From the NCBI RefSeq assembly GCF_050920415.1, contig NZ_CP169309.1: a DNA stretch of 64,000 nucleotides; one strand, 5' to 3'. The stretch comes from Escherichia coli (lineage in GTDB: Bacteria; Pseudomonadota; Gammaproteobacteria; Enterobacterales; Enterobacteriaceae). Shown here one piece after another: positions 20,701-49,953 of the stretch. The notes below the pieces were generated by a model, which worked only from the letters and a program-made list of their open reading frames with translations, did no database searches and was not told where the DNA came from. The position numbers were made by a program, and so were the translations under genes. The stretch's first letter is position 1. Each line of letters begins with the position of its first letter.

Positions 20701-22438
20701 GCTCAACATGCTTAGCCTCACCACCGTCCTGAACCTCCAGAACGCCACCATTATTAAGTCTGGTGGTATCTGTTTTAGCCTCCTTCTGGACAATCAGCTT
20801 ACCGCCAGCATCAACGGTAGTATTTTTCGCCGTGGTTTTAGCCACTACCGTCAGTTCGCCGGTATTTTCCAGCACAACATAATTAGCCTCCCCTCCGGTA
20901 ATAGTGAAGTGAGAGAGCTTGTTGTATCCTTCAATATCAGTCCCTGCGCCCGTGTTGGCAACTAAAGCACTGCCCGTCTCCTGGTTAACCCCATGTGCGA
21001 TACCACCGGTATAGACAATCAGCGAGCCTCCGGCGCTAATATTGCTGCCAGTTGCCGTACCATCTTTCTCAACAACCTGCCGGCTCCCGGAGGAGATATT
21101 TGTCGTGTCAGCTTTCCCGCCGCTCTTGATATTTTGTGTTCCGCTGTTGATATTGGTTCCCGTGGCAATACCATGATTATTAATATTCTGTGTGCCACCA
21201 TTAATTATGGTATTTGTCGCGTTTCCGGCAACATCCATAACCCCGCCATTATCTATTCGGGTCGCATCAGCTTTAGCATTCGTTAAAACTGACATTGTTC
21301 CTTTATCTTTAATAACCGTCTTGTTTGCCGAACCATATGCGTTTATGTCTAAATGGCCACCGTTTTCCAGCAACACATTGTCTGCCACGTGATTGTGGAT
21401 GGAGAATGCCCCTTCACTATTCGTACCGCTCACCGTCGACCTGTCAGTCATTGCTTTTAAAGCCGCGCCATCGTGCTGGGTAACATTCGTTGCCGTACCC
21501 TCTCTAACATCAAGCACGCCACCGGAATATATTTCAATAACATTCGAGGTGCTCCTGCTATCAACAATTTGCGTCCCACCAGAATAGATCGTGGTAGTGT
21601 GCGCCGTTGACGTGTTTTGCAGCGTCTGCATTCCTCCATTTTTAATGGTGGTTATTTGTGCAGTGCTTGAATCAACATCCTGTCGACCACCATCTATTGT
21701 GGTGTCCAGCGCATGGCTCTTAATTGTTCTTTGGTCACCTCCATTTTTAATGATAGTGTTTTCTACAATACTCGAATCTACATACTGTCGGCCCCCATCT
21801 ATTGTTGTGTTCGTTGCCAGACTTCCTTGTGTGATGTTCTGAGAACCAGATGTATTTATCGTCGTACCGTCAACATGCCCCTGAGCTGTTACTGTTTGTT
21901 TACCACCATCAATGACAGTCCCGTTTGCTCTCCCTCCTTCGACGTATGAATTACCATTCTTAATTATCGTGCCATTGCTGGTACCATCCTTATAAATGTA
22001 CTGATTGCCACTCTCGATTAACGTGCCATTGCTGGTACCACCGTTATAAACTTGCTGATTGCCACTCGCGATTATCGTACCGCTAGAATTCCCACCATTA
22101 TAAATTACCTGTGTACCCCCATGAAGGATTGTATTATTAGCTTGCCCCTGATAATTGTTATGGTTTGCTACATCTTGTTGTCCACCCATTTCAATAATAC
22201 TTCCATTAGACACCCCACCAAATACAGTCTGGTGGCCGTGATTAATGATATGAGTATCATTAGTTGTCCCCCGTTCATCTACTATTTGCTCGCCATCCAC
22301 AGTTTCACCATTTACGATACCAGTAACGATTGATGTGAAAGCAGCCTCTCCAGGCTGGGCATATATCAAGGCAGATATCAATAAGGAAAGTACTGAACGG
22401 CGAAAATAATAGCGACTGGTCCTGTTCATAAATTTCAT
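17747..22438 (-). CDS. AIDA-I-type autotransporter adhesin: beta-helix repeat passenger, Pro-rich linker, C-terminal beta-barrel
   Basis: ORF 17747..22558; likely start at MKFMNRTSRYYFRRSVLSLLISALIYA (22438 or 22429) with GAGG RBS. Dozens of GGxQxV/NGT repeats, PNPDPNPNPKPDPKPDPKPDP linker, C-terminus ending ...NWSF typical of autotransporter barrels. Confidence 0.85.
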   Translation of the reverse strand: MKFMNRTSRYYFRRSVLSLLISALIYAQPGEAAFTSIVTGIVNGETVDGEQIVDERGTTNDTHIINHGHQTVFGGVSNGSIIEMGGQQDVANHNNYQGQANNTILHGGTQVIYNGGNSSGTIIASGNQQVYNGGTSNGTLIESGNQYIYKDGTSNGTIIKNGNSYVEGGRANGTVIDGGKQTVTAQGHVDGTTINTSGSQNITQGSLATNTTIDGGRQYVDSSIVENTIIKNGGDQRTIKSHALDTTIDGGRQDVDSSTAQITTIKNGGMQTLQNTSTAHTTTIYSGGTQIVDSRSTSNVIEIYSGGVLDVREGTATNVTQHDGAALKAMTDRSTVSGTNSEGAFSIHNHVADNVLLENGGHLDINAYGSANKTVIKDKGTMSVLTNAKADATRIDNGGVMDVAGNATNTIINGGTQNINNHGIATGTNINSGTQNIKSGGKADTTNISSGSRQVVEKDGTATGSNISAGGSLIVYTGGIAHGVNQETGSALVANTGAGTDIEGYNKLSHFTITGGEANYVVLENTGELTVVAKTTAKNTTVDAGGKLIVQKEAKTDTTRLNNGGVLEVQDGGEAKHVEQQSGGALIASTTSGTLIEGTNSYGDAFYIRNSEAKNVVLENAGSLTVVTGSRAVDTIINANGKMDVYGKDVGTVLNSAGTQTIYASATSDKANIKGGKQTVYGLATEANIESGEQIVDGGSTDKTHIKGGTQTVQNYGKAINTDIVSGLQQIMANGTTEGSIINGGSQVVNEGGLAENSVLNDGGTLDVREKGSATGIQQSSQGALVATTRATRVTGTRADGVAFSIEQDAANNILLANGGVLTVESDTTSAKTQVNAGGREIVKTKATATGTMLTGGEQIVEGVATETTINDGGIQTVSANGEAVKTTINEGGTLTVNDNGKATDIIQNSGAALQTSTANGIEISGTHQYGTFSIAGNLATNVLLENGGNLLVLAGTEARDSTVGNGGAMQNLGQDFATKVNSGGQYTLGRSKDEFQALARAEDLQVAGGTAIVYAGTLADASVSGATGSLSLMTPRDNVTPVKLEGVVRITDSATLTIGNGVDTTLADLTAASRGSVWLNSNNSCAGTSNCEYRVNSLLLNDGDVYLSAQTAAPATTNGIYNTLTTSELSGSGNFYLHTNVAGSRGDQLVVNNNATGNFKIFVQDTGVSPQSDDAMTLVKTGGGDASFTLGNTGGFVDLGTYEYVLKSDGNSNWNLTNDVKPNPDPNPNPKPDPKPDPKPDPKPDPTPDPTPTPVPEKRITPSTAAVLNMAATLPLVFDAELNSIRERLNIMKASPHNNNVWGTTYNTRNNVTTDAGAGFEQTLTGMTVGIDSRNDIPEGIATLGAFMGYSHSHIGFDRGGHGSVGSYSLGGYVSWEHESGFYLDGIVKLNRFESNVAGKMSSGGAANGSYRSNGLGGHIETGMRFTDGNWNLTPYASLTGLTADNPEYHLSNGMESKSVDTRSIYRELGATLSYNMRLGNGMEVEPWLKAAVRKEFVDDNRVKVNNDGNFVNDLSGRRGIYQAGIKASFSSSLSGHLGVGYSHGASVESPWNAVAGVNWSF
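18668..18779 (-). repeat. Tandem short coding repeat for the (PDPK/PNPD)n linker of the autotransporter
   Basis: Periodic GGATCCGGTTT/GGGTCTGGTTT units on the plus strand. Confidence 0.8.
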
Positions 22439-23032
22439 CCTCTGAAAAGTGAATACTGAGTAGCGGGTAAGCGACCTTAGCTCTGCTGCAACATCGGCCC
22501 ACAGGCACCAGACCAGGGGATTCATCCTTAAGAGACAGCGCAAGTGTATTGTGTTCACCGCTCATCAAAGACATCATGATGAAATGATGATATTCCGCAT
22601 AAGAAAGAGGCATTTTTAGACGCATCGCGCTGAAGTGTGGTTGAATAAAAATCAATCTTTTCAGATAAGACTGTCGTACTCTTATTTTGCGGAAATAAGG
22701 CCGTCGGCAAAGTAAAATGACTCACATAATTGTTTCTGATGAATATCTTCTACTCACATGAATATTACACAATAATATTGATGCATCAGATTATCTTACC
22801 TTTACAACATCACGTTAACAGCCAATGACACTTCTTGAATAAAAATATTGTCAATCAAAGAGTTATTTTTTATTTAAGATTATTCTCATTCAAGTAAAAG
22901 ACATAATTCCTATCATCACAGCCACGCTCATTTTGAATTATCTGAATAATAGCGAGCGTTCTTTAGTTAAGCAGGTCTTAATTGAAGACGAAATTATTGT
23001 GTGTGCAACTTACTTAATACCGGACATCTAAG

Positions 23033-23760: not shown

Positions 23761-23891
23761 ATATAGTTCTACAATGAAACATCACACCCGCCAATACGCC
23801 CTCACAACAACAAGCAAAGCAATTTAATCGGCATTAAACCACAAGTACAACAATACTTATTACTATATAGCGGCTATAGCATAAAGAAAGA

Positions 23892-24110
23892 TTAGTGCTG
23901 ATCCCTGTGGCTAACGAGTTTTTCCCTTACTCGATTAACCAGATTGATCGCCAGCCAAACAAGGGCATTCAGCAAATTTATCGTCACAAGCACTTCTCCA
24001 AGCCCAGTACTGGGTTTTGCGATAAGGATGACCAGCAAGGTGATCAGCATAAATGCAATGGAAAAGATGATATAGAGAGTGAAATAATCCAGATTATTAC
24101 TATTGTTCAT
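23892..24110 (-). CDS. ymgF: Inner-membrane division-associated small protein YmgF
   Basis: MNNSNNLDYFTLYIIFSIAFMLITLLVILIA...; 72 aa from internal ATG 24110. Confidence 0.8.
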   Translation of the reverse strand: MNNSNNLDYFTLYIIFSIAFMLITLLVILIAKPSTGLGEVLVTINLLNALVWLAINLVNRVREKLVSHRDQH

Positions 24111-24241
24111 GCTACTAATGGCAATCCTGTCAAAACTTTCAAACAATTATAGCAAACAAAATAATGAACAATAGTAACAAGACGCAACGAGCTAATTAGC
24201 TGTCTATAATTACACCGCACCATGGTCTTAATGATCAATTT

Positions 24242-25765
24242 TTACTCAATCATAACCTTCACCTTCGGTTTAGAAAGGATAATTTTAACCAGGTCGATGT
24301 AGGTTACCGGTTTATAGAAATAATAACCCTGCTGAAATGTGATGTTGTTTTGATTCAGATAATCAAGCTGTTCTTTTGTTTCGACACCTTCAGCGACGAT
24401 ACTGATCGAAAGTTTACGCGCCAGATCCAGTACACAATCCAGAATCCTGGTTGATTCTGGGTCTGCATTGACACGACCAACAAAACTGTGATCAATTTTA
24501 ATATAATCAATATGCAGATCATGCAGATAAGAAAGCCCTGAATAGCCAGTACCAAAATCATCCAGTGCGATGACAAAACCATTTTCATGCAGAATGTTCA
24601 ACCGCTGAACCAGACTTTCATCAACATCTAATGATTCACGCTCGGTCACTTCCAGAACGAGGTTTAAATCGCGGCGGGTAAAACTGTCACGGAAAATTAA
24701 GCACTCGTCGACAAACGTCGGCGAAATAATATGCGAGGCACTAAAATTAATTCCGATATGAAAACCTTCCGGCAATTTACTCGCGATAGTGTTCATCTGT
24801 GTGACAACCTGATTCATCAGACTTTGTGTAAGCGGAACAATTAATCCAGATTTTTCAGCAAGTGGAATAAATGCCGCGGGTGAGATATATTTGCCGTGAG
24901 GTTGTTTCCAGCGGGCTAATACCTCAACTCCCCGCAATGACCCTTCCCGACCATTTACCACAGGTTGGTAAAAAGGGACAATCTCACCATTACTTATGGC
25001 CCGTCGCAGGACCTCTTCAGGCGTTGCGCTTTTATTAAAATACTTATCAAGCAGGTAGGCTGCGGCGCAGGCAATTAACAGAATGAATATCAAAACCCCT
25101 ACGCCATTATCGATAAGTCTGTAGAAGCTAAAGAATGGTGGTGGGTTAAAGATAATAGTGAAATGATATCTTGTGGAGTGAACCTTCTCAGTATAAGGAT
25201 AGTGTCCATTAAGCGTCATCACGTCACCGGTAGGTCCAATAATGTCATCCGCTACGCGTAATGCATACCTTACCCCTTTCAAGGGCACATTAAGCGCTCC
25301 ACGAATATGCTGATCACTTATCGTGACCAAAATACGCGTGTCTGCAAATTGGCTCTGATAGAGCAGGATAGGCAATCTATTGACGGTGTCGATTGCCGGA
25401 GCCAACAGTAAATTACTGTCAGGGAAAGCAGGAATACGAGACAGCAGGACTCGATTCCCCGGCAAGGATGTACACCAGACCATTCCGCGTTTGAGAATGA
25501 TGATTGTGCGCAAGTGAGGTTTCAGAGCTGCTTCAGTGCCAAGCTGATATTGCTCCTCGAGGTCGCATTCCTTCCCGGCAATGTTAACCGCCGCTTGAGT
25601 CGCCTGTGACGCTTCTTCAAGTATGTGATTGATATTGTTGACAGCATATCTCGCTCCCGCCGTATATGCTGCTTTTGCGGAATACCAAAGCTGGATATTC
25701 AAAATAGCGACACCGGTTATAAACAAGCATATCGCAACGAGGATGGGTATGAGTGTATTGCGCAT
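24242..25765 (-). CDS. pdeG: CSS-motif EAL-domain c-di-GMP phosphodiesterase (YcgG/PdeG)
   Basis: 507 aa; N-terminal TM plus periplasmic domain, C-terminal EAL domain. Confidence 0.85.
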   Translation of the reverse strand: MRNTLIPILVAICLFITGVAILNIQLWYSAKAAYTAGARYAVNNINHILEEASQATQAAVNIAGKECDLEEQYQLGTEAALKPHLRTIIILKRGMVWCTSLPGNRVLLSRIPAFPDSNLLLAPAIDTVNRLPILLYQSQFADTRILVTISDQHIRGALNVPLKGVRYALRVADDIIGPTGDVMTLNGHYPYTEKVHSTRYHFTIIFNPPPFFSFYRLIDNGVGVLIFILLIACAAAYLLDKYFNKSATPEEVLRRAISNGEIVPFYQPVVNGREGSLRGVEVLARWKQPHGKYISPAAFIPLAEKSGLIVPLTQSLMNQVVTQMNTIASKLPEGFHIGINFSASHIISPTFVDECLIFRDSFTRRDLNLVLEVTERESLDVDESLVQRLNILHENGFVIALDDFGTGYSGLSYLHDLHIDYIKIDHSFVGRVNADPESTRILDCVLDLARKLSISIVAEGVETKEQLDYLNQNNITFQQGYYFYKPVTYIDLVKIILSKPKVKVMIE

Positions 25766-26097
25766 TCGCTTGTCCCGGACTAAGGATTTTAATACATAAA
25801 ATGATGTTCATTCGCTCGTGCTGGCGTCTAAAGAGAGCATGGTAGAGAGCATAAGAAATATCCACGCCGAAGATAAAATTTTCTCCATCGTCATCTAACC
25901 TATTAATTATTGTGCTTAATGTGGGTAAAATTAAGCAAATCTGGCAGGATGTCAGACGTCAAGAATGGAGAACAATAGTTCTCCATTCTTGTTTAAACCC
26001 TGATATTCCGGATATATTAAGAAACATAACGACTTAAATTATTACTTTGCAACAGAATATGATACAGCTGATGGTAATTTTAAAACCTTACTCAGTT

Positions 26098-26346
26098 CTA
26101 AGAGAGCTCGGCTTCCCTGTCATTAATAATGACATCCGTTAGTGTTGTCTTATGCAATTCAATGTACTGCAAAATTTGCAGGTAGAGATCAGAAAGAATC
26201 ACACTCGTTTCATCTTTTAAACGCAAGCGTAAAGCCTGATCAATAATATGACTATTAACATACCCATGCGCCATGAACACCTCCCTCTCGAGATTTTTAA
26301 ATAAAGCACATTGAAAAATAAATCTCTCGGGAATTGAATTATTCAT
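26098..26346 (-). CDS. ymgC: Small regulatory protein YmgC
   Basis: 82-aa ORF in the ycgZ-ymgABC operon position. Confidence 0.8.
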   Translation of the reverse strand: MNNSIPERFIFQCALFKNLEREVFMAHGYVNSHIIDQALRLRLKDETSVILSDLYLQILQYIELHKTTLTDVIINDREAELS

Positions 26347-26466
26347 GTCAGCCTCGTAAAAATATCAATCCAATAGAATTATGCTGTGTATAGTCTAAGC
26401 GACAGACAAAAATAAGATGAATGAGTTTTCTATAAACTTATGCTAGTTATACTAAACAATAAAAAG

Positions 26467-26733
26467 TCACATATCATCAGCTGTGTATCGCAACACGATT
26501 TCCAGTGTTTTTCTAATCACATCAGCTTTGAGAATATCATTCGTTGTTTCCAGGGAGTGTATCAGACTTAAGATAATATTTTTATTATTAACATTATCTC
26601 CTGAAAGCATTAAATTGGTCACCGCCTGCCCTAATACAGCAGACTCTTCTTCTAACAAATTCCCCGAACTGCGAAAGTAACTTGATAACGCCTTATCAGT
26701 TATTGCGTTATGAATAGTAGTATCTTCAAGCAT
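26467..26733 (-). CDS. ariR: Connector protein AriR/YmgB (biofilm and acid-resistance regulator)
   Basis: 88-aa ORF; operon context. Confidence 0.85.
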
Positions 26734-26761
26734 GGTAACCTCTCATCTTACTTATGAAATT

Positions 26762-27034
26762 TTAATGTATTCTGTTTATTTTCTTACCATTGAATATACT
26801 TTTATTGTCAGCTATTGCTGCTCTTCTGTTAGGCCCTCCTGTATCACAGTTGCTAAAATCACGAATTATGCTATCAATTAAATCTCGTCGGAAGGCATTT
26901 TGTTCAACAGATTTCATTACGAGTAATTGCTTAATAAGAGTCTGCAACGAAAAATTTATCTTCATGCGTAATATCTGGAGCACCGCCTGGCCAGTAATTT
27001 CATGTTTTATACTTTCATTATCAGATGTCTTCAT
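26762..27034 (-). CDS. ymgA: Small protein YmgA
   Basis: 90-aa ORF; operon context. Confidence 0.8.
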   Translation of the reverse strand: MKTSDNESIKHEITGQAVLQILRMKINFSLQTLIKQLLVMKSVEQNAFRRDLIDSIIRDFSNCDTGGPNRRAAIADNKSIFNGKKINRIH

Positions 27035-27076
27035 AACGACTTCATAGTTAATCTGTCAAATAATCAGGCTGTCACA

Positions 27077-27313
27077 TTATTCAAAAAGCAACCCAATTAG
27101 TGAATTGTAGTGTTTCTGTTCCTCTTCCCCTGTCGCTTGCTCCAGTCGACAAAGAAGTTTGGTACAAAGCGACTTTCGACTCAGATTACGTCCATCTTTC
27201 AAAATTTCAGTCACAATTTCCCCGAGGGTTTCCTGCTGAGTAGGCAAGTTAGCTTTTGCAAAGTAACGAGTAATTGCCCCCGCAGAATCTGAAATCACTG
27301 AATTTTGCTGCAT
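27077..27313 (-). CDS. ycgZ: Small protein YcgZ
   Basis: 78-aa ORF, first gene of the ycgZ-ymgABC operon, divergent from bluF. Confidence 0.8.
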   Translation of the reverse strand: MQQNSVISDSAGAITRYFAKANLPTQQETLGEIVTEILKDGRNLSRKSLCTKLLCRLEQATGEEEQKHYNSLIGLLFE

Positions 27314-27367
27314 GCTACGCCTCTATTAAAAATGTTAAACGTTGTTAAGTGCAGTAACAATAGCAAA

Positions 27368-27389
27368 CTTGTACGAAATATGTGTACAG
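27368..27389. promoter_or_regulatory. TGTAC-N9-GTACA inverted repeat in the ycgZ promoter region (candidate BluR operator)
   Basis: CTTGTACGAAATATGTGTACAG lies 55-75 nt upstream of the ycgZ start. Confidence 0.45.
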
Positions 27390-27626
27390 AATGATAAATT
27401 ATTTTTTTGCAATTAGTGCTAACACCTATAAAACAATGAGATACGTAAAAATTATTTGCATCATTTGACTGACAACCTATACAAGATTCCAAACGAACTC
27501 ATCTTCAAATTTTTCCATCTTTCATCAATGTAAATAAATAGTTATGTTTTAGTATTAAAAGCAAGACACCAGAAGATATGTCTGTTACCGTCATACTCTC
27601 GCCTCGCCCATTACCCTGGACTATTA

Positions 27627-28838
27627 ATGCTTACTACCCTTATTTATCGTAGCCATATACGTGACGACGAACCTGTCAAAAAAATCGAAGAAATGGTTTC
27701 GATAGCAAATCGCAGAAACATGCGGTCTGACGTAACAGGGATTTTACTGTTTAATGGTTCACATTTTTTTCAACTTCTTGAAGGTCCGGAAGAACAGGTT
27801 CAAATGATTTATCGGGCCATATGCCAGGATCCACGGCACTATAATATCGTTGAACTGCTGTGCGATTACGCACCTGCTCGCCGTTTTGGCAAAGCAGGAA
27901 TGGAATTATTTGATTTGCGCCTCCACGAGCGCAATGACGTTTTACAGGCCGTACTCGACAAAGGCACCTCAAAATTTCAGCTAACTTATGATGACAGAGC
28001 GCTGCAATTTTTTCGTACTTTTGTTCTTTCAACTGAAAAATCAACCTATTTCGAGATTCCTGCCGAAGACTCCTGGCGTTTTATCGCTGACGGACCTGAT
28101 AAAGAACTTGATTCCTGTACCCTTTCACCAAATATAAACGACCACTTTGCCTTTCATCCTATTGTCGATCCTTTATCGCGGCGGATAATCGCTTTTGAAG
28201 CAATTGTTAAAGATAGGGAAGACAGCCCATCAGCCAGAGTGGTTGGGCAAAGCAATGACGGGGAAATCTACACAGCGGATCTCAAAAGTAAGGCACTTGC
28301 ATTCGCGATGGCACACGCACTTGAGCTCGGTGATAAAATGATTTCAATCAATCTATTACCTATGACCCTGGTTAACGAGCCTGACGCGGTCTCTTTTTTA
28401 CTTGATGAAATAAAGGCCAATGGTTTGGTGCCTGAACAAATTATCGTGGAATTTACTGAAAGTGAGGTCATATCTCGGTTTGATGAATTTGCCGATGCTG
28501 TTAAATCACTTAAGGCTACCGGTATGAGTGTAGCAATTGACCATTTTGGCACAGGTTTTGCCGGTTTGTTACTCCTGTCACGCTTCCAGCCTGACAGAAT
28601 TAAAATCAGTCAGGAATTGATTACCAATGTTCATAAAAGCGGGCCTCGGCAGGCAATTATTCAGGCGATCATAAAATGCTGTACATCACTTGAAATTCAA
28701 GTCTCTGCTATGGGTGTGGCAACACCAGAAGAGTGGATGTGGCTTGAATCTGCAGGAATTGAGATGTTTCAGGGAGATCTGTTTGCCAAAGCTAAATTGA
28801 ATGGTATCCCTTCAGTTGCGTGGCCGGAGAAAAAATAA
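27627..28838 (+). CDS. bluF: Blue-light sensor BLUF-EAL protein (YcgF/BluF)
   Basis: 403 aa; N-terminal BLUF motif (YRSHIRDD...LLFNGSHFFQLLEG) and degenerate EAL C-terminal domain. Confidence 0.9.
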   Translation: MLTTLIYRSHIRDDEPVKKIEEMVSIANRRNMRSDVTGILLFNGSHFFQLLEGPEEQVQMIYRAICQDPRHYNIVELLCDYAPARRFGKAGMELFDLRLHERNDVLQAVLDKGTSKFQLTYDDRALQFFRTFVLSTEKSTYFEIPAEDSWRFIADGPDKELDSCTLSPNINDHFAFHPIVDPLSRRIIAFEAIVKDREDSPSARVVGQSNDGEIYTADLKSKALAFAMAHALELGDKMISINLLPMTLVNEPDAVSFLLDEIKANGLVPEQIIVEFTESEVISRFDEFADAVKSLKATGMSVAIDHFGTGFAGLLLLSRFQPDRIKISQELITNVHKSGPRQAIIQAIIKCCTSLEIQVSAMGVATPEEWMWLESAGIEMFQGDLFAKAKLNGIPSVAWPEKK

Positions 28839-28957
28839 TTTTCAGCACATTATTTCACATGATTTCTGGAAATCATCGTGAAAATGAATACGTTATGTTT
28901 TAATTTAATCCACATTAAAAATAATGTTTTATCCAATTTAGCTGAAATCTTATTTAT

Positions 28958-28991
28958 ACTTTGTACAATTTTAGCGTATATTGTACAAAGT
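28958..28991. promoter_or_regulatory. Perfect 11-bp inverted repeat ACTTTGTACAA-N12-TTGTACAAAGT upstream of bluR (candidate MerR-type operator)
   Basis: Seen directly; a third GTGTACAG lies at 29003..29010; about 50 nt upstream of the bluR ATG. Confidence 0.5.
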
Positions 28992-29042
28992 ATTATTGGG
29001 TCGTGTACAGGCGACGGAGATTTATGAGCGCAAGGAGGAATT

Positions 29043-29774
29043 GTGGCTTATTACAGCATTGGTGATGTTGCTGAACGTTGCGGGATTAATCCTGTCACTC
29101 TCCGGGCTTGGCAACGCCGCTACGGTTTGTTAAAACCACAGCGCAGTGAAGGCGGACACCGACTCTTTGATGAAGAAGACATACAACGCATCGAAGAGAT
29201 CAAGCGTTGGATAAGTAATGGCGTCCCTGTAGGCAAAGTTAAAGCATTACTGGAAACCACCAGCCAGGATACGGAAGATGACTGGAGCCGCCTGCAAGAA
29301 GAGATGATGTCAATTCTTCGTATGGCTAATCCTGCCAAACTACGCGCGAGAATTATTTCACTGGGTCGAGAGTACCCGGTAGATCAATTGATTAATCATG
29401 TTTACCTTCCTGTTCGTCAGCGTCTCGTGCTTGATCACAACACCTCCCGCATTATGAGCAGTATATTTGACGGCGCATTAATTGAATACGCAGCAGCCTC
29501 ACTTTTCGAAATGCGCCGTAAGCCCGGTAAAGAAGCCATTCTAATGGCGTGGAATGTTGAAGAGAGAGCACGATTGTGGCTGGAAGCATGGCGTTTATCA
29601 TTGTCAGGATGGCATATTTCTGTCCTTGCTGATCCCATTGAATCGCCGCGCCCGGAACTGTTCCCGACGCAAACATTGATTGTCTGGACTGGCATGGCAC
29701 CAACGAGAAGGCAAAACGAACTATTACAACACTGGGGTGAGCAAGGTTATAACGTCATCTTTCATGCCCCCTAA
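29043..29774 (+). CDS. bluR: MerR-family repressor BluR (YcgE)
   Basis: 243 aa; N-terminal MerR HTH ([30 protein letters not shown]). Confidence 0.9.
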
Positions 29775-29994
29775 TTTCACCTTTATCCCGCCCCTTAGAC
29801 AGAATCTTATAATCTGAACCCACAACAGCGTTTGTACCGGAGCTGATCCGTTGCAAAATGCTCACCGGGAGAATTCAGGTAATCCCCCTTTCACACTTTG
29901 TACATATCACAGCCAAAGGACAGACCAGCTTGAAGTGAGAAAACCGATCGTGCACACTACGCACTCTCACAACTAACAAAAGGTTATTATCCTG

Positions 29995-30399
29995 ATGGAT
30001 CAGGTCGTTGTTTTTCAAAAGATGTTTGAAAAAGTGAGAAAAGAGCAAAACTTCTCCTGGTTTTATTCAGAATTAAAACATCACCGTATTGCACATTACA
30101 TTTATTATCTGGCTACGGATAACATCAGAATTATTACTCACGATGAAACAGTTTTGTTATTAAGAGGAAACCGTAGCCTGTTAAAAGTCAGTACAACCAA
30201 AAATCCAGAAAAAATTAAAGAGGCGGCATTGCTTCATATTTCTGGGAACTCTACATTTTGGGAGTATTGTACAACACTGGCAAGTGCTGGCGTTTTCCGC
30301 TGGGTAACCGATGTTAATAACAATAAACGCGGCTACTACGCTATTGATAATACGCTGTTGTATGTTGAAGATGTGGAAAATAACAAGCCATTAATCTAG
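29995..30399 (+). CDS. ycgX: DUF1398-family protein YcgX
   Basis: 134-aa ORF in conserved position. Confidence 0.8.
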   Translation: MDQVVVFQKMFEKVRKEQNFSWFYSELKHHRIAHYIYYLATDNIRIITHDETVLLLRGNRSLLKVSTTKNPEKIKEAALLHISGNSTFWEYCTTLASAGVFRWVTDVNNNKRGYYAIDNTLLYVEDVENNKPLI

Positions 30400-30594
30400 C
30401 AAAGTTTTAACACATAAGAGAACTATCATAATTCAGTAAAATAACAAAAAAGAGGTCTTTCTATGACTTATCAGAACTCCCTTTTTATTGTTATCCATAA
30501 TTGTTCAGCCGACCAATACTATAAATCTGACATTTGACATGCCTCCTTTGCCGTTCTGATACGTTACTTGTATTACAGTTATCAAACCCACAAA

Positions 30595-30662
30595 TACAAC
30601 GGGCGTGTTATATGCCCGTTCAATACTTAATAGGTATAGCGTTAACATATTCTTGATAGCAT
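30595..30662. repeat. Diverged duplicate of the icd 3' end plus terminator hairpin (icdC-like remnant); left boundary of the islet
   Basis: CAACGGGCGTGTTATATGCCCGTT (26/27 identical to the hairpin at 36911..36934) followed by TTAACATATTCTTGATAGCAT, which matches the last codons of icd. Confidence 0.65.
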
Positions 30663-31229
30663 GTATTGCATACCTCCAGCCTTAGAGTTATCTCCGGCTA
30701 ACTCCACCAAACATGGCTGCACACAGCCAGATAAGAACGCTTGCGCGCATCTGGATATCATACCGCTGCTGGAACTGTTTCTTAATCATCCTACCTTATT
30801 AGACCTATTCGATACTGGCCATTATGAAGGACGCAAAGTAAGCGCTTTTTATGCGTTTTTGCTGAGTTATCATCACGTTACCTTAATATTATCAGGAACG
30901 AGTTAACGCTGCTCATAACGGTCAAACCGATACTATAAAGCCCAATAATTGAAACCTTTTCATCATGTCAGGAAGATAGTCATCCTTATGATCTTTATAT
31001 AAAAAAGCCAACCATGGGGTTGGCAAAGTGGCACAAACCAGCATAAAAGCTATGCTTTGTTTACAAATCTTCTTTGAATTAAATATATATCGTCCTGACT
31101 AAACAGAACTAAAACGGAATGAATTATTTAATCATGTTACTAAATTTCATTTTGTTTAGCCTCTGTTGAGATCCCTTGTTTTAAATTTCATTTAGATAAA
31201 ATTCTTAATTAAATCCTTGGGAGTCAATT

Positions 31230-31490
31230 ATGTCTATGCAAAGTCAAGGAATGAACTTTGAAATGAACCTATACGCATATTTGAATAAATATGATAGTCG
31301 GCTTTCAGAAGAAAAACTTGCAATTGATAAGGCAGTTAGAGATTTATATCTTTGCAACGAACACGTGGATAACAAGAGCATTATACTGAAATTGCTCTCA
31401 TTTTTATCATCTGCTGATGACATTGTTGAAAAAGATATTATCAGGAATGCTTTGGAAGTGGTGCTTCTTTTTACATTAGACGATATTTAA
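31230..31490 (+). CDS. AriR/YmgB-family small protein (paralog)
   Basis: C-terminal half HVDNKSIILKLLSFLSSADDIVEKDIIRNALEVVLLFTLDDI aligns with AriR at 26467..26733 ([42 protein letters not shown]). Confidence 0.7.
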   Translation: MSMQSQGMNFEMNLYAYLNKYDSRLSEEKLAIDKAVRDLYLCNEHVDNKSIILKLLSFLSSADDIVEKDIIRNALEVVLLFTLDDI

Positions 31491-31737
31491 GTCATCTCAG
31501 GAGTTTTAATACACGAAGAGTGCCCGGATACTAGCGATTATATTCATATTTAATTATTAGTGCGGGGAAAGAGATTATGCATTGGCATATTTCTCTAACG
31601 TCCGTGATAGAAAAAAACTTTAAATATAAATAAAGAACAAACCACCTTTGCATTCAACCTCATCTGAGCTGACTATAGTACAAATTATATTGATATTCTT
31701 TATCAACATCATTGGAACAGAAGAATAAGGCGAAGAA

Positions 31738-32061
31738 ATGAAGTGTATAGTAATTGATACTGTAATACAACCTTCGTGTGGTATATATTTTTCAGTCATA
31801 TGGAGCGATATGAAAATGATCATTTGGTATCGTTCAAATATATTTCTCCCACCTGGCAGCATATTTACAGTTATTAAGTCAGGTATTATACTCGAGGATA
31901 AAGAATATCCGATCAGTATTTTTAACGTGGCGCTATTCAACAAAAATTTATGGAATTTAATCAAAAATAGTCAAGAGTGTCCTACAGAATCAAACAAAAT
32001 TACGAATAAATGCATGCATAAGCATTGCATTATGCAAATATGTCCACATGGTCTCAAGTAA
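31738..32061 (+). CDS. iraM: Anti-adaptor protein IraM-like (RssB inhibitor family)
   Basis: 107 aa; MKCIVIDTVIQPSCGIYFSVIWSDMKMIIWYRSNIFLPPGSIF... resembles IraM/YcgW by recall. Confidence 0.75.
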   Translation: MKCIVIDTVIQPSCGIYFSVIWSDMKMIIWYRSNIFLPPGSIFTVIKSGIILEDKEYPISIFNVALFNKNLWNLIKNSQECPTESNKITNKCMHKHCIMQICPHGLK

Positions 32062-32793
32062 TGGGGGTTATTTAACCTTCCCTATATGCTATAGATAAAT
32101 CTACCAAAAACTGCCCCTTCGTAGAGGGGCGCTATGATTTTGTTTTATTTGAAGGCATGGTGCTGAATGTATTCGTTGAATCCAGATTCAACACCTGAAG
32201 CTGCACTTAACCCATAATACTTGTTTCTGGTTCCTCTACCGAGTGGTCAAACAATGATATGTATGTGACGTCAGAGTTTATTTTTTTAGTGTTTAATGCT
32301 ATTAATTTAACGTAGTTACCTATCTTTTTTCTACCTTCTGAACTAACCTTAGGTTTCAACGTAACCGGCAGGAGGGGCTATCCCCAATCTTAAATTTTGC
32401 TGCCCGATTTGCTCAAGCCAAAGTTTTAATTTTACAACCTATAAACCTGAGTTAAATCAACCTCATGGTGCTGTCTGTTCCCGCTGTGGAACAAGACTCA
32501 CTGCAACATCTTGCATTCCTAAACTTCGCAGAAGGCGATGGGCAAAAACTGTACTGTAATGTTATTTCGATGTCTCTTATGGTAAATAGGAGGCATCGAG
32601 GCTAAGTGAGCAGCCTGCTTGCTTCTCAATCCTGGATACTATCAGCATTCACGCAGATGAAATGATGATATTTCGCGTAAGAAAGAGGCATTTTTTTATC
32701 AACTTCACATCGGAGATGGTAATAATCCTATGGGTCCAGTCCATATGAGGGGGCAACATACTATAAAATTCACAATCATAAATTAACTATATA

Positions 32794-34269
32794 TCAAGAA
32801 CGCCAAAAAAATCCTGAAAATAGTATAATAACAGGGTAAATTTCAAGTCGACCAAGAATCATAGCAATACACATGAGATATTTTGCAATATCATTAAGAA
32901 CACCGAATGAGGATGCGGTAGCCCCAAAACCCAGCCCCATATTATTAATGCATGCAGCGACTGTCGCAAATGATGTAAGGAAATCATATCCCATACCATT
33001 TAGCACCAGTATAAAAAACACTGTAAAGAAAGTATAAAGAAAAAAGAAACTCCATACAGACCTCATTACGCGGTCTGTAACAATCTTCCCTCCTACATTT
33101 ACACTAAGCAATGCTCTGGGATGAGAAAGCTGATTTATTTCGTGTTTACTTTGTTTAAAAAGTATAAGAAATCTAAGTGATTTAATTCCGCCGCACGTTG
33201 AGCCTATACATCCCCCAAAAAAACTTGACAGCAGCAAAAAAACTATCGTATGTGTGGGCCAGTTTGAATAATCCTGCGTAGCTAAACCATTATCAGTGAG
33301 CATGGAGCTAGCAAGAAAAAACGAATGAACAACACTTCCAGTTAAGTCATACATACCTATATGCCAGACCTGGAAAGAGGTAACAATGATAACACCTGAA
33401 GCTATTAACAAAAAGAAACGAAGTTCAACATCTCTGAGTAAGGGTTTTATTGTTTTCCTGCTTATAACAACATACCAAAGAGTGAAGTTGAAAGCCGATA
33501 ACAGAGAAAAAGAGCCCGCCACCAGTTCAATCAAATAATTATTGAAATAGCCGATACTCTCACTATGAGTTGAAAAACCGCCAAGAGAAACTGTAGAAAG
33601 TCCATGACAAATAGCATCAAACAAAGGCATTCCTGCAAGTCGATAACAAACAATACAAGCAATGCCTAATAAAGAATAAGTTATCCAAAGTGTCCGCGAC
33701 GTATCAGCCAAGCGTGGAGTCAGTTTGTCATCCTTAAATGGCCCTGGCATTTCTGACTGATAAAGTTTTGCACCACCAATACCCAATAATGGCAACACAG
33801 CAACTGCCAGAACAATAACCCCTAAACCGCCTATAAAATTTAATTGTGACCGGTAGAACAAATATGCCCGAGATAATGAACTGACATCATCAATTACTGT
33901 TGCTCCTGTTGTTGTTATTCCGGAAACCCCTTCAAACAGCGCGTCAGCAAACGTTAAATTAAGCTCTGAATCAATCCATAATGGAAATGCGCTAATAATA
34001 GAAAATAAAATCCAAAACATTACAATTATAATAAACCCATCACGGGTGCGTAATTGAATGCCAGATTTTTTAGTGGTATACCACGCTCCGCCACCAATAC
34101 AAAAAAATATAACAAAAGTAATAAAAAAAACGAACAAGCTTTTTTCTTTATAAAACAATGCTACAACCATTGGTGGTAACATTGAAAGACTATAGAGCCA
34201 GACCAAGAACCCACACATATGAGTTACAACTCTTACATGAGATGTATTCATATCCAAATGTTCTTTCAA
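32794..34269 (-). CDS. TrkH/TrkG-family potassium uptake membrane protein
   Basis: 491 aa, polytopic, with repeated selectivity-filter-like GxGxxxGG segments (GGLGVIVLAV..., STCGGIKS...). Confidence 0.75.
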   Translation of the reverse strand: MKEHLDMNTSHVRVVTHMCGFLVWLYSLSMLPPMVVALFYKEKSLFVFFITFVIFFCIGGGAWYTTKKSGIQLRTRDGFIIIVMFWILFSIISAFPLWIDSELNLTFADALFEGVSGITTTGATVIDDVSSLSRAYLFYRSQLNFIGGLGVIVLAVAVLPLLGIGGAKLYQSEMPGPFKDDKLTPRLADTSRTLWITYSLLGIACIVCYRLAGMPLFDAICHGLSTVSLGGFSTHSESIGYFNNYLIELVAGSFSLLSAFNFTLWYVVISRKTIKPLLRDVELRFFLLIASGVIIVTSFQVWHIGMYDLTGSVVHSFFLASSMLTDNGLATQDYSNWPTHTIVFLLLSSFFGGCIGSTCGGIKSLRFLILFKQSKHEINQLSHPRALLSVNVGGKIVTDRVMRSVWSFFFLYTFFTVFFILVLNGMGYDFLTSFATVAACINNMGLGFGATASSFGVLNDIAKYLMCIAMILGRLEIYPVIILFSGFFWRS

Positions 34270-35204
34270 TTATAACCACCTTACTGCAATGTCATGATTA
34301 TACTGTATAAATTTTAACTCTTCTTAGATCTTACTTCACTGGTCCTTATGAAACAATCAGCAAAATGAATCTTATTATAACACTGTTCGGTTATGTATTG
34401 TTGAGCCTTCCCGCTGGGCCTGCATCATTACAAGTCGCTCCCTATGGGGCTTTGTCGAATAAATAATTTTTCGGTAAGTATCCCCCTGAGCAGGTTGTAT
34501 CTTCAGGCAGTATGAACACTTTCTGGCATACCTACCTTCGTCATTATGTTCAGCGTATGCACCATGACCAAAGCCTCTGCAACCGGCCTATCATAATCTA
34601 GCAGCATCAGAGAACCTCAGAATAACTGTTTTACCCTGTTCATTGCCGTTTCCGCTATTGAGCGACGATTGTAATCTTTTGTCCATTTTCACCGGGAATT
34701 ACCCTCGGTCAATCGCTGATACGCGACTGCACAGTTACGGTCGGCATACTCACCGGGCCAGTAACCCGCTCCTTTTTGGGGTGGGATGAGCGCGCTGATT
34801 TTCACACGGCGCAGCTGCTCGTAACAGAGCCGAGAGGCGTAAACTCCGTCTGCTGCTGTCCTGATTTTTTGATGGGTTTGCCGGATTAATCCGGCTACAC
34901 CTCTACATCCGTTACGCTGAATGCTGAGGTCGCCCTTGGGAAGAAGGCATTGCTGACTTATACCAATCCGAAATCACCTCCTCGAGCAACCAGACAGGGA
35001 GGGGCCTCGGTTGATAAGAGCTCTGTTATTGATGTGCCAGTTGGTGATTCTAACTTTTGCTTTGTAACGGGACGAGCCGTGTTGGCAGATGATGTGTGGT
35101 CTGATCCTTAAACTCAGTAAAAGTACGATTTATTCAAAAAAGCCCCTCCACTATGATTTCGATTTAAGGGGCTGATGATTATGTAACGCGAATTTACCGG
35201 ATCC

Positions 35205-36590
<1,386 letters not shown>

Positions 36591-36908
36591 TCAGGGGGGT
36601 TGATATTCCGGATCGTGCCGTGTTTGCCCACGGCTCCCCCTGGAGAGCTGCAGACCTGTTTATTTAACTCGCACAGCGCCGGGGCCTGTCAGCAAACAGG
36701 GAGCATAACCGTCGTGCCATTAAACGCCAGACGGGAGATCATTATTATTTTATTAATACAGATCCGTTGCATTCCGGTCTTTACCGCAGTTTAAAAGAAA
36801 AGAGAATAGGGACTTAGGCAGTAGAGCAGTCATTGGACAGACCACACTACCCCAAACTAGCAGGGGAGTTTTGATAAAATTTTGATAACCGTTAGCAGGC
36901 TAACAAAA

Positions 36909-36976
36909 CACAACGGGCGTGTTATACGCCCGTTACAGTTTTTAACACATGCAGAAATTACATATTCTTGATGATC
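36909..36976. repeat. icd terminator hairpin plus icd 3' end; right-hand copy of the islet-flanking direct repeat
   Basis: CAACGGGCGTGTTATACGCCCGTT hairpin just downstream of the icd stop; matches 30595..30662. Confidence 0.65.
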
Positions 36977-38208
36977 GCATCACCAAACTCTGAACATTTC
37001 AGCAGCTTAGCGCCTTCCATCAGGCGTTCGAAATCATAGGTTACGGTCTTCGCATTGATTGCGCCTTCCATACCTTTAACAATCAGATCTGCGGCTTCAG
37101 TCCAGCCCATATGGCGCAGCATCATCTCAGCGGAGAGGATGATAGAGCCTGGGTTAACTTTGTCCTGACCAGCGTACTTCGGCGCAGTACCGTGGGTGGC
37201 TTCAAACAGCGCGCATTCGTCACCGATGTTTGCGCCTGGGGCGATACCGATACCGCCAACCTGCGCTGCCAGAGCATCAGAAATGTAGTCACCGTTGAGG
37301 TTCATACAGGCGATAACGTCGTATTCAGCCGGACGCAGCAGGATCTGTTGCAGGAATGCGTCAGCAATCACGTCTTTAATGACGATCTCTTTGCCGGTGT
37401 TCGGGTTTTTGACTTTCAGCCACGGGCCGCCGTCGATCAGTTCACCGCCAAACTCTTCACGCGCCAGCTGGTAACCCCAGTCTTTAAACGCGCCTTCGGT
37501 GAACTTCATGATGTTACCTTTGTGCACCAGGGTCACAGAGTCACGGTCGTTAGCAATTGCGTATTCGATCGCGGCACGAACCAGACGTTTGGTGCCTTCT
37601 TCCGAACACGGCTTGATACCGATACCGCAATGTTCCGGGAAGCGAATTTTCTTCACGCCCATCTCTTCACGCAGGAATTTAATCACTTTCTCAGCGTCGG
37701 CAGAATCAGCTTTCCATTCGATACCCGCATAAATGTCTTCCGAGTTTTCACGGAAGATAACCATATCGGTCAGTTCAGGATGTTTAACCGGGCTTGGGGT
37801 GCCCTGATAGTAACGTACCGGACGCAGGCAGATGTAGAGATCCAGTTCCTGGCGCAGAGCTACGTTGAGAGAACGAATACCGCCGCCAACCGGAGTGGTC
37901 AGAGGGCCTTTAATGGCAACGCGATATTCACGAATCAGATCAAGGGTTTCAGCAGGCAGCCAGACGTCCTGACCATAAACCTGTGTGGATTTTTCACCGG
38001 TGTAAATTTCCATCCAGGAGATTTTACGCTCGCCTTTATAGGCTTTCTCGACTGCAGCGTCGACCACTTTCAGCATGGCTGGGGTTACATCTACACCGAT
38101 TCCATCACCTTCAATGTAAGGGATAATCGGATTTTCAGGAACGTTGAGTTTGCCGTTTTGCAGGGTGATCTTCTTGCCTTGTGCCGGAACAACTACTTTA
38201 CTTTCCAT
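36958..38208 (-). CDS. icd: Isocitrate dehydrogenase (NADP)
   Basis: 416 aa, [38 protein letters not shown]...; intact, not prophage-interrupted. Confidence 0.95.
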
Positions 38209-42762: not shown

Positions 42763-42806
42763 ATTATCCGCTTTTTATTTTTTCTCTTTACCTCCCCTCC
42801 CCGCTG

Positions 42807-42823
42807 GTTTATTTAATGTTTAC
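42807..42823 (+). promoter_or_regulatory. PhoP box (direct repeat GTTTAT-N5-GTTTAC) of the autoregulated phoPQ promoter
   Basis: GGTTTATTTAATGTTTAC about 60 nt upstream of the phoP ATG. Confidence 0.8.
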
Positions 42824-49926: not shown

Positions 49927-49953
49927 CTTCGAACGCTAGTCGCAGCTAATCTA

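What the first reader, a model, noticed from the sequence alone, without database searches (positions are those of the whole stretch)
31230..32061. Paired small regulators in the islet: an AriR/YmgB paralog next to an IraM-like anti-adaptor
The 86-aa ORF is clearly homologous in its C-terminal half to AriR encoded about 5 kb away, and lies immediately upstream of an IraM-like gene (a family that inhibits RssB-mediated RpoS turnover). Two connector-type small proteins side by side suggest an accessory stress-signalling module, possibly co-regulated.
Basis: partly seen in the sequence, partly recalled or inferred. Interest (0 to 1): 0.5.

Follow-up and report, generated by a model that had tools for sequence, protein, structure and literature searches.

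The report
AriR-like gene heading the iraM unit
A rare E. coli lineage keeps a small AriR/YmgB-family regulator gene just upstream of the stress gene iraM, apparently behind the same magnesium-sensing (PhoP-type) promoter; most E. coli, K-12 included, have deleted it, so this is a real but fairly ordinary and already annotated gene.

Summary
The 86-aa ORF (31230-31490, +) is a real YmgB/AriR-family gene. It is 40% identical to the window's AriR over 73 residues (E=2e-17), matches Pfam PF10798 (E=6e-14), and its model fits AriR structure 2OXL (TM 0.94). dN/dS against diverged alleles is 0.13-0.15. The next gene (31738-32061) is IraM above NCBI's curated cut-off.

RefSeq already annotates both, so their identity is not new.

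What the tools add:
- **Promoter.** A PhoP box (TGTTTAgcctcTGTTGA, 31153-31169) sits 12 nt before a TAAATT -10, upstream of the ORF rather than of iraM. phoP's own promoter in this window has the same layout.
- **Unit boundaries.** No intrinsic terminator separates the ORF from iraM; one follows iraM.
- **Deletion in K-12.** K-12 has the homologous promoter and the first ~19 codons, then an ~425-bp deletion ending 21 nt before iraM. This junction is in 3,884 of 5,426 complete E. coli genomes; the intact gene is in 29.
- **Origin.** The gene is a deep, E. coli-only branch of the family, not a recent copy of the nearby ariR.

My best reading is a PhoP-driven two-gene unit. Transcription, PhoP dependence and protein function are inferred, not shown. 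I classify it as a new member of a known kind, of modest interest.

The parts
31100..31116 (-). Weak reversed PhoP-box-like site (CGTTTTAGTTCTGTTTA, 2 mismatches), about 37 bp upstream of the main box
   Evidence: Found. The block CTAAACAGAACTAAAACG is nearly invariant across five diverged alleles. Two-mismatch sites are common in the window (31 found against 16 expected), so this one is weak on its own.
31153..31169 (+). PhoP box TGTTTAgcctcTGTTGA, one mismatch to (T/G)GTTTA-N5-(T/G)GTTTA
   Evidence: The strict pattern gives 3 hits in 64 kb against 0.08 expected, and one of the three is phoP's own promoter. TGTTTA and the TTGA of the second half-site are invariant in all alleles, including K-12. 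The same TGTTGA second half-site occurs in the shf promoter, which bound PhoP in EMSA and was examined by DNase I footprinting in Shigella (PMC5775216).
31182..31187 (+). Predicted -10 hexamer TAAATT, 12 nt after the PhoP box
   Evidence: Read from the sequence. The 12-nt spacing matches the phoP promoter in this window, GGTTTATTTAATGTTTA-12 nt-CATAAT. The hexamer is invariant across alleles. The transcription start was not mapped; this is an inference.
31219..31223 (+). Shine-Dalgarno GGGAG, 6 nt before the ATG
   Evidence: Read from the sequence.
31230..31490 (+). 86-aa YmgB/AriR-family gene (RefSeq WP_001354918.1)
   Evidence: Identity and fold. dN/dS is 0.13-0.15 against 84-aa alleles at dS 0.8-0.9. 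All invariant family columns are kept, including R72, which corresponds to AriR R74.
31491..31737 (+). 247-nt spacer with no intrinsic terminator, poorly conserved
   Evidence: No terminator or sigma-70 promoter hit on the + strand. It is 62-65% identical between alleles, against 80% for the ORF. Fold z-score is -1.8. No Rfam family matches. A weak reversed PhoP-like site lies at 31627-31643.
31738..32061 (+). iraM, a divergent allele (72% aa identity to K-12 IraM)
   Evidence: NCBIfam match at 144.5 bits against a cut-off of 121. Allele identities. dN/dS is 0.19-0.26. Ten of the 13 RssB-contact residues reported for the IraM-RssB structure are identical, and the other three are similar substitutions (one search compared).
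32112..32141 (+). Intrinsic terminator after iraM (stem-loop TGCCCCTTCGTAGAGGGGCG plus a T-rich tail)
26467..26733 (-). ariR (ymgB), the canonical paralogue in the ycgZ-ymgA-ariR-ymgC operon

Best explanation
The 86-aa ORF is a functional small helical protein of the YmgB/AriR family, and it is the first gene of a two-gene unit, ORF86-iraM.

**Proposed mechanism.** The unit is driven by a PhoP-box promoter: box at 31153-31169, -10 at 31182-31187, and a predicted 5'UTR of about 35 nt. Transcription reads through a 247-nt spacer into iraM and stops at the terminator at 32112-32131. Low Mg2+, acid or antimicrobial-peptide signals sensed by PhoQ/PhoP would then produce two small regulators together. 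One is IraM, which sequesters RssB and stabilises RpoS. The other is an AriR-like protein. By analogy with AriR, it most likely binds a signalling enzyme: the RcsC kinase domain, which would activate Rcs, and/or the SpoT TGS/helical region, which would raise ppGpp.

**Evolution.** The arrangement is ancestral at this locus. A single ~425-bp deletion (corresponding to window ~31292-31716) removed most of the gene and the spacer. This produced the K-12-type allele, in which the same promoter drives iraM directly.

**What is shown.** Gene reality and family membership, purifying selection, the PhoP-box geometry, the absence of an intrinsic terminator, and the deletion relationship to K-12.

**What is inferred.** PhoP dependence in this strain, co-transcription, and the protein's molecular target.
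For: **Gene and family.**
- 40% identity to AriR, E=2e-17.
- Pfam PF10798, E=6e-14.
- Sequence match to 2OXL, E=6e-11.
- AF2 model with pLDDT 85 and four helices; it superposes on 2OXL_A at TM 0.94 and rmsd 0.6 A.
- It keeps all 7 invariant and 7 near-invariant family columns, including R72. This corresponds to AriR R74, which is required for SpoT binding (PMC10704370).

**Selection.**
- dN/dS is 0.13-0.15 at dS ~0.8-0.9 against the 84-aa alleles.
- The ORF is 80% identical at the DNA level, while the adjacent spacer is 62-65%.

**Promoter.**
- The strict PhoP-box pattern occurs 3 times in the window against 0.08 expected. One of the three is phoP's own promoter, which has the same 12-nt box-to-(-10) spacing.
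- The box and the -10 are conserved across all alleles.
- iraM is known to be PhoP-induced in E. coli (reviews PMC10948607 and PMC11825808). The Shigella homologue ycgW is 11-fold down in a phoPQ deletion (PMC5775216).

**Operon.**
- Same strand, no intrinsic terminator in between, and a terminator after iraM.
- The ORF-~245 bp-iraM layout is kept in two allele lineages about 25% diverged at the DNA level.

**Deletion.**
- K-12 has the homologous promoter and the first ~19 codons, then joins 21 nt upstream of the iraM ATG.
- Three diverged deletion alleles share the identical junction.
- The junction is present in 3,884 of 5,426 genomes, against 29 with the intact gene.
Against: - No transcript, transcription-start or protein data exist for this allele.
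- I could not retrieve the primary papers that mapped the K-12 iraM promoter and PhoP site. Equating that site with the box seen here rests on homology and on my memory of those papers.
- A 247-nt untranslated spacer is long for an operon. It could allow Rho-dependent termination or hold a separate iraM promoter. A weak reversed PhoP-like site (31627-31643) and a TATAGT (~31665) are there.
- The gene is dispensable. It is lost in about 72% of genomes, and truncated variants exist (P0018, P0019, P0034).
- The family's usual 'LE' motif reads 'LS' here, and the branch is long. The target may therefore differ from AriR's.
- The ORF is outside the ycgZ-ymgAB operon, whose other products form a complex with AriR (PMC6900184).
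Confidence: 0.6

Rival explanations
1. The two genes are separate transcription units. ORF86 is monocistronic from the PhoP-box promoter. iraM is transcribed from its own promoter inside the 247-nt spacer, possibly also PhoP-responsive through the reversed site at 31627-31643.
For: - The spacer is long, at 247 nt.
- A reversed PhoP-like site with 2 mismatches lies at 31627-31643, about 95 nt upstream of iraM.
- A TATAGT lies ~21 nt downstream of that site (read).
- iraM has its own AAGG ribosome-binding site.
Against: - The consensus scan finds no sigma-70-like promoter on the + strand of the spacer.
- Two-mismatch PhoP sites are common by chance (31 found against 16 expected).
- The TATAGT is not conserved in the 84-aa alleles, and the spacer as a whole is only 62-65% conserved.
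- In K-12-type alleles the whole spacer is deleted, yet iraM is still PhoP-induced according to the literature. The upstream promoter is therefore sufficient.
Confidence: 0.25
2. ORF86 is a dispensable relic on its way to loss. It may still be translated in some strains but has no meaningful function there. The important element is only the promoter that it donates to iraM.
For: - The intact gene is in only 29 of 5,426 complete genomes, while the deletion allele is in 3,884.
- Truncated or frameshifted versions exist in databases (P0018, P0019, P0034).
- It is AT-rich, H-NS-type DNA. An H-NS site is recorded in the K-12 iraM-ycgX spacer (PMC3946193).
Against: - dN/dS is 0.13-0.15 over dS ~0.9, with 22.5 of 202 nonsynonymous sites changed against about 25 of 50 synonymous sites.
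- Every invariant family residue is retained in both allele lineages.
- The ORF is more conserved than the flanking spacer.
- A good SD sequence and an intact frame are present in the four alleles sequenced here.
Confidence: 0.1
3. ORF86 acts at the DNA or nucleoid level, like Hha, modulating H-NS silencing of the islet rather than binding a signalling enzyme.
For: From memory, the original AriR structure paper likened YmgB to Hha; I could not retrieve that paper. The locus is AT-rich.
Against: - Foldseek against the PDB returns only 2OXL as a meaningful hit, with no Hha/YmoA entries among the matches.
- Later experimental work assigns AriR protein partners, RcsC-HK and SpoT (PMC6900184; PMC10704370; PMC11709261).
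Confidence: 0.05

Closest known systems
AriR (YmgB) of E. coli, PDB 2OXL, Pfam PF10798
   Same: - Same family by HMM, pairwise alignment and predicted fold.
- Similar size, 86 against 88 aa.
- Conserved NK-IIL...D..R..LE.V..T.DD signature, including the SpoT-contact arginine.
- Same chromosomal neighbourhood, 4.5 kb away.
   Different: - Only 40% identical, on a separate long branch and not sister to AriR.
- Not in the BluR-repressed ycgZ-ymgABC operon; it sits behind a PhoP-box promoter and next to iraM.
- The family's 'LE' motif is replaced by 'LS'.
- Found only in E. coli and only in about 0.5% of complete genomes.
K-12 iraM locus (PhoP-induced anti-adaptor gene, b1160)
   Same: - Homologous promoter, PhoP box and iraM coding sequence.
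- Same position between ycgX and icd.
   Different: - K-12 lacks about 425 bp, covering most of the AriR-like gene and the spacer. It keeps a 22-codon remnant whose stop overlaps the iraM ATG.
- The window IraM is only 72% identical to K-12 IraM.
- K-12 has e14 inserted beyond iraM, whereas the window has trkG, an IS remnant and a 458-aa ORF.
IraL of UPEC CFT073 / Shigella (IraM paralogue; PMC4045071)
   Same: Same PF11183 / IraM-IraL-RssC family of RssB anti-adaptors, restricted to Escherichia/Shigella, with RssC in Salmonella.
   Different: - IraL-type proteins are 111 aa and 62-64% identical to the window protein.
- They lie in a different context: the potB island, or a prophage in E. albertii (L006).
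- No AriR-like gene lies upstream of them.
PhoP-dependent connector genes such as pmrD and safA-type small connectors
   Same: A small protein made under one two-component system that acts on another signalling protein. IraM itself has a PmrD-like fold (bioRxiv 10.1101/2023.01.07.523045).
   Different: ORF86 has an all-helical YmgB fold unrelated to PmrD, and its target is unknown.

Membership tests
YmgB/AriR family (Pfam PF10798) | Significant match to the family HMM | tested here: met
   PF10798 matches residues 28-85 over model positions 2-59 of 59, E=6.4e-14.
YmgB/AriR family (Pfam PF10798) | Homology to E. coli AriR and its solved structure | tested here: met
   BLASTP gives 40% identity over 73 aa, E=2e-17. 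phmmer against 2OXL gives E=6.3e-11.
YmgB/AriR family (Pfam PF10798) | Three-helix core fold of 2OXL | tested here: met
   The AF2 model has pLDDT 85. Foldseek against 2oxl_A gives TM(target) 0.94 and rmsd 0.6 A over 60 columns. This is a predicted model, not an experimental structure.
YmgB/AriR family (Pfam PF10798) | Conserved signature residues, including the arginine equivalent to AriR R74 | tested here: met
   I52, L55, D69, R72, L75, D84 and D85 are invariant. E28, N48, K49, L59, E76, V78 and T82 are near-invariant. All are present.
YmgB/AriR family (Pfam PF10798) | Homodimerisation; binding to RcsC-HK and/or SpoT; Rcs activation or ppGpp accumulation | not testable with these tools
   These were shown for AriR only (PMC6900184, PMC10704370, PMC11709261).
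ycgZ-ymgABC operon member (BluR/BluF-controlled) | Located in the operon downstream of the BluR-repressed ycgZ promoter | tested here: not met
   The ORF lies beyond bluR and ycgX, on the opposite strand to ycgZ-ymgA-ariR, and has its own promoter region.
IraM anti-adaptor family (NCBIfam NF007393 / Pfam PF11183), for the neighbouring gene | HMM score above the curated cut-off | tested here: met
   144.5 bits against a cut-off of 121, covering residues 1-107. Homologues carry PF11183.
IraM anti-adaptor family (NCBIfam NF007393 / Pfam PF11183), for the neighbouring gene | Conservation of RssB-contact residues (clusters I-III of the IraM-RssB structure) | tested here: met
   I4, I6, W22, K26, I42, C14, F18, W30 and I61 are identical. 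The changes are T13S, Y62F, H63N and I64V, all similar substitutions (one search compared with the gapless alignment).
IraM anti-adaptor family (NCBIfam NF007393 / Pfam PF11183), for the neighbouring gene | Binds RssB and stabilises RpoS | not testable with these tools
   Needs RpoS half-life and two-hybrid assays.
PhoP-activated promoter | PhoP box (T/G)GTTTA-N5-(T/G)GTTTA at the -35 position, about 12 nt before a -10 hexamer | tested here: met
   TGTTTAgcctcTGTTGA (1 mismatch) + 12 nt + TAAATT. The phoP promoter in the same window reads GGTTTATTTAATGTTTA + 12 nt + CATAAT.
PhoP-activated promoter | PhoP binding and PhoP/low-Mg2+-dependent transcription | not testable with these tools
   Known for K-12 iraM from the literature only. 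Not tested for this allele.
Bicistronic operon ORF86-iraM | Same strand, no terminator between the genes, terminator after the second gene | tested here: met
Bicistronic operon ORF86-iraM | A single transcript spanning both genes | not testable with these tools
   No expression data are available. The 247-nt gap leaves the question open.

The most novel reading that the evidence does not exclude
The ancestral iraM locus was a PhoP-controlled two-connector operon. Its first product, an AriR-like protein, feeds PhoQ/PhoP signals into a second pathway (Rcs phosphorelay and/or SpoT-dependent ppGpp) in parallel with IraM-mediated RpoS stabilisation. A single ancient deletion fixed in about 72% of E. 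coli rewired this output. It also left a 22-codon leader ORF whose stop overlaps the iraM start (ATGA), so that iraM translation in K-12 is coupled to a previously unrecognised remnant peptide.
Probability: 0.25. Interest if true: 0.5.

Novelty: new member of a known kind. Interest (0 to 1): 0.3.

Why it matters
- IraM is one of the three classic anti-adaptors that set RpoS levels in E. coli, and its PhoP control is textbook material. If the promoter used by K-12 iraM originally belonged to an AriR-like gene that most strains have deleted, that explains the long, odd iraM leader.
- It predicts a remnant leader ORF overlapping the iraM start in K-12.
- It identifies natural strains in which PhoP may switch on a second small regulator together with IraM. 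Those strains give a simple comparative system (intact against deleted allele) for asking how small 'connector' proteins are gained and lost in stress networks.
- The gene itself belongs to a known family and is already annotated, so the gain is incremental.

Tried and rejected
- **Recent tandem or segmental duplicate of ariR: rejected.** The ORF86 clade is monophyletic in 40 of 40 bootstraps, sits on a long branch, and is not sister to E. coli AriR. Identity to AriR is only 40%.
- **Phage moron origin for ORF86: no support.** There is no PHROG family and no tblastn hit in 50,697 phage records. Its neighbours iraM, ycgX and trkG do match PHROGs.
- **The pair present in other species: not found.** A genome-contig scan with an IraM profile returned only E. 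albertii, in a prophage context with no AriR-like gene upstream, plus a contaminant-like 558-bp contig. Protein searches returned only E. coli for the ORF86 subfamily.
- **Structured RNA or known sRNA in the 247-nt spacer: not supported.** Fold z-score is -1.8, there is no Rfam hit, and conservation is 62-65%.
- **Independent sigma-70 promoter in the spacer: none found** by the consensus scan. It cannot be fully excluded.
- **Primary papers for the K-12 iraM promoter and PhoP site, and the AriR structure paper: not held** in the library (Bougdour 2008, Eguchi 2011, Thomason 2015 TSS table, Lee 2007). I found no paper linking an AriR-like gene to iraM.
- **Genomic context of the nearest non-E. 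coli relative (P0039):** it gave only a 1.4-kb contig with two YmgB-family genes, which was uninformative.

Full report
**1. What the window is**

The window is E. coli chromosome, 100% identical over the tested 2.4 kb to strain MFDS1022581 (NZ_CP169399.1). The local gene order, with strands in brackets, is:
- pdeG(-), ymgC(-), ariR 26467-26733(-), ymgA(-), ycgZ(-)
- bluF(+), bluR(+), ycgX 29995-30399(+)
- ORF86 31230-31490(+), iraM 31738-32061(+)
- trkG(-), an IS remnant, a 458-aa hypothetical(-), icd(-)

Against K-12 the flanks are 96-97% identical and the ycgZ...ycgX block is 91.7% identical. The promoter-ORF86-iraM cassette is only 74-80% identical where it aligns at all. The cassette has 31-32% GC.

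**2. Checking the observation**

- The ORF is exactly where stated. It has a GGGAG Shine-Dalgarno sequence 6 nt before the ATG.
- It aligns to the window's AriR at 40% identity and 64% positives over 73 ungapped residues, E=2e-17. That is residues 14-86, more than the 'C-terminal half'.
- Pfam YmgB/AriR (PF10798) matches at E=6.4e-14, and PDB 2OXL (AriR) at E=6.3e-11.
- An AlphaFold2 model built on a 29-sequence family alignment has mean pLDDT 85 and four helices. It superposes on 2OXL_A with TM 0.94 and rmsd 0.6 A.
- The neighbouring gene passes NCBI's curated IraM model at 144.5 bits against a cut-off of 121.
- RefSeq already annotates the pair as 'biofilm development regulator YmgB/AriR family protein' (WP_001354918.1) followed by iraM.

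**3. Is it a real gene?**

A homologue exists in 29 of 5,426 complete E. coli genomes, always between ycgX and iraM. There are at least two deeply diverged allele types:
- the 86-aa window type, in 18 genomes;
- an 84-aa type, about 75% identical in protein.

Between the two types dS is 0.8-0.9 and dN is 0.12, so dN/dS is 0.13-0.15. For iraM the same comparison gives 0.19-0.26. The ORF is 80% identical at the DNA level, while the spacer next to it is 62-65%.

All seven invariant and seven near-invariant family columns are retained. One of them is R72, the equivalent of AriR R74, whose R74G change abolishes SpoT binding (PMC10704370).

This is the signature of a translated gene under purifying selection. 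It is nevertheless dispensable. Most strains lack it, and a few database entries are truncated.

**4. Where does it sit in the family?**

A search of 1.84 billion cluster representatives found one full-length cluster for this subfamily plus short fragment entries. All other relatives are at most 45% identical over the matched stretch. All named members are E. coli.

In a neighbour-joining tree the ORF86 clade is monophyletic in 40 of 40 bootstraps and sits on a long branch. It has no stable sister and is not paired with E. coli AriR. So it is not a recent copy of the nearby ariR.

It has no phage homologues. Its neighbours iraM, ycgX and trkG do fall into phage protein families.

**5. Regulation**

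- The strict pattern KGTTTA-N5-KGTTKA occurs three times in the 64-kb window, against 0.08 expected.
- One hit is phoP's own autoregulated promoter: 42806-42822, GGTTTATTTAATGTTTA, then 12 nt, then CATAAT, then phoP.
- Another is TGTTTAgcctcTGTTGA at 31153-31169, followed by 12 nt and TAAATT (31182-31187). It lies upstream of ORF86, not of iraM.
- The geometry matches the phoP control.
- The TGTTGA second half-site also occurs in the Shigella shf promoter, which bound PhoP in EMSA and was examined by footprinting (PMC5775216).
- The first half-site TGTTTA, the TTGA core of the second half-site and the -10 are invariant in all five alleles aligned.
- Inside the 247-nt spacer there is only a 2-mismatch reversed site, 31627-31643. 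At that stringency 31 sites occur against 16 expected.
- No intrinsic terminator lies between the ORF and iraM; a clear one follows iraM at 32112-32131.
- The spacer shows no convincing RNA structure (z=-1.8) and no Rfam match.

**6. Relation to K-12**

K-12 has the homologous upstream region: TGTTTAacatcCATTGA, 12 nt, TAAATT. It then has an ATG and about 19 codons that align with the start of the 84/86-aa gene. After that it jumps to 21 nt upstream of the iraM ATG. The missing segment corresponds to window ~31292-31716, about 425 bp.

Three diverged deletion alleles (K-12, EC21, 98232) share the identical junction, which argues for a single event. The junction is present in 3,884 of 5,426 genomes.

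Because the deletion alleles retain a truncated N-terminus, the ribosome-binding region and the promoter of the gene, the intact arrangement is the ancestral state.

iraM is known to be induced by PhoQ/PhoP (reviews). The Shigella homologue is 11-fold down in a phoPQ deletion. In K-12-type alleles the only PhoP-box-like element upstream of iraM is this one. I could not retrieve the primary mapping papers, so identifying the mapped site with this box is an inference.

**7. Best explanation**

I read this as a PhoP-box promoter driving an ORF86-iraM unit. Under PhoP-activating conditions the cell would make IraM together with an AriR-like helical protein.

- **IraM.** It acts as an RssB anti-adaptor. 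Ten of the 13 RssB-contact residues reported for K-12 IraM are identical here, and the other three are similar substitutions.
- **The AriR-like protein.** For AriR itself the documented activities are binding to the RcsC histidine-kinase domain with Rcs activation (PMC6900184; PMC11709261) and binding to SpoT with ppGpp accumulation (PMC10704370). ORF86 keeps the critical arginine.

A reasonable guess is that ORF86 binds one of these partners or a related one. That step is purely by analogy, and I give it about 0.3. The gene's reality and family membership I put at about 0.95, PhoP control at about 0.65, and co-transcription at about 0.6.

**8. Rivals**

- **Two separate transcription units, with an iraM promoter in the spacer (0.25).** The long gap and the weak reversed site favour it. 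Against it are the absence of a recognisable promoter, the poor conservation of the spacer, and the sufficiency of the upstream promoter in K-12.
- **A functionless relic (0.1).** The rarity of the gene favours it. The low dN/dS and the fully conserved family signature argue against it.
- **An Hha-like nucleoid role (0.05).** There is no fold-level support for it.

**9. Comparison with the known, and novelty**

It is a member of the YmgB/AriR family on every testable criterion. It is not part of the BluR-controlled ycgZ-ymgABC operon.

The neighbouring IraM is a third lineage: 72% identical to K-12 IraM and 62-64% to IraL-type proteins. The IraL paper reported that all iraM matches it then found in sequenced genomes were at least 95% identical to K-12 iraM (PMC4045071).

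I found no paper mentioning an AriR-like gene at the iraM locus. What is new is therefore the evolutionary and regulatory reading: an ancestral PhoP-driven pair, a deletion in most E. coli, and a remnant leader ORF overlapping the iraM start. The kind of gene is not new.

Verdict: new member of a known kind, interest about 0.3.

Noticed in passing
L002 18001-18069 (minus strand) = NC_000913.3 1,212,000-1,212,068: K-12 keeps an unannotated 22-codon remnant of the AriR-like gene (MQNQEINILMNHIKYRGIRHNK). Its TGA stop overlaps the iraM ATG (ATGA), an arrangement typical of translational coupling. The frame is open with the same junction in two other diverged alleles (EC21, 98232).
   Followed up: partly
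window 31738-32061: This IraM is a third lineage: 72% aa identity to K-12 IraM and 62-64% to the 111-aa IraL-type proteins. An earlier survey reported that all the iraM matches it found were at least 95% identical to K-12 iraM. The RssB-contact residues are mostly conserved.
   Followed up: partly
window 32100-36900: A 4.8-kb insert lies between iraM and icd. It holds trkG (which is in the Rac prophage in K-12), an IS903-like transposase remnant (~34450-35150) and a 458-aa hypothetical protein (35205-36581, minus) with obvious internal repeats. In the other ORF-bearing alleles iraM is only ~100 bp from icd. K-12 has prophage e14 at this position.
   Followed up: partly
window 42806-42822: The perfect PhoP box GGTTTATTTAATGTTTA, 12 nt before CATAAT, just upstream of phoP. 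This is the autoregulated phoPQ promoter and served as an internal positive control.
   Followed up: yes
window 17546-17562: A third strong PhoP-box-like match (TGTTTATGCCTGGTTGA, + strand) lies downstream of minE and faces the 3' end of the autotransporter gene. It has no obvious target gene.
   Followed up: no
window 49700-64000: Collinearity with K-12 ends inside the pot operon at 49701. Beyond it are lambdoid prophage tail genes on the minus strand: tail fibre, central tail fibre J (1232 aa) and tape measure (859 aa). This is a prophage at the potB site, which is the site that carries iraL in CFT073. No second iraM/iraL copy is in the window.
   Followed up: partly
window 23886-30630: The pdeG-ymgC-ariR-ymgA-ycgZ-bluF-bluR-ycgX block is only 91.7% identical to K-12, against 96-97% for the flanking core genes. 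Synonymous divergence is high (ariR dS 0.22-0.32, ycgX dS 0.46) but the proteins are conserved. The whole neighbourhood is unusually polymorphic.
   Followed up: partly
window 17747-22558 (minus strand): An intact 1603-aa AIDA-type autotransporter occupies the place where K-12 has only the ycgH pseudogene.
   Followed up: no
window 36864-36942: A sub-threshold Rfam match to the 3' part of STnc150 (36.8 bits against a gathering score of 60), just downstream of the icd stop codon and overlapping the last 15 nt of the gene (icd is 36958-38208 on the minus strand), near the e14 attachment region.
   Followed up: no
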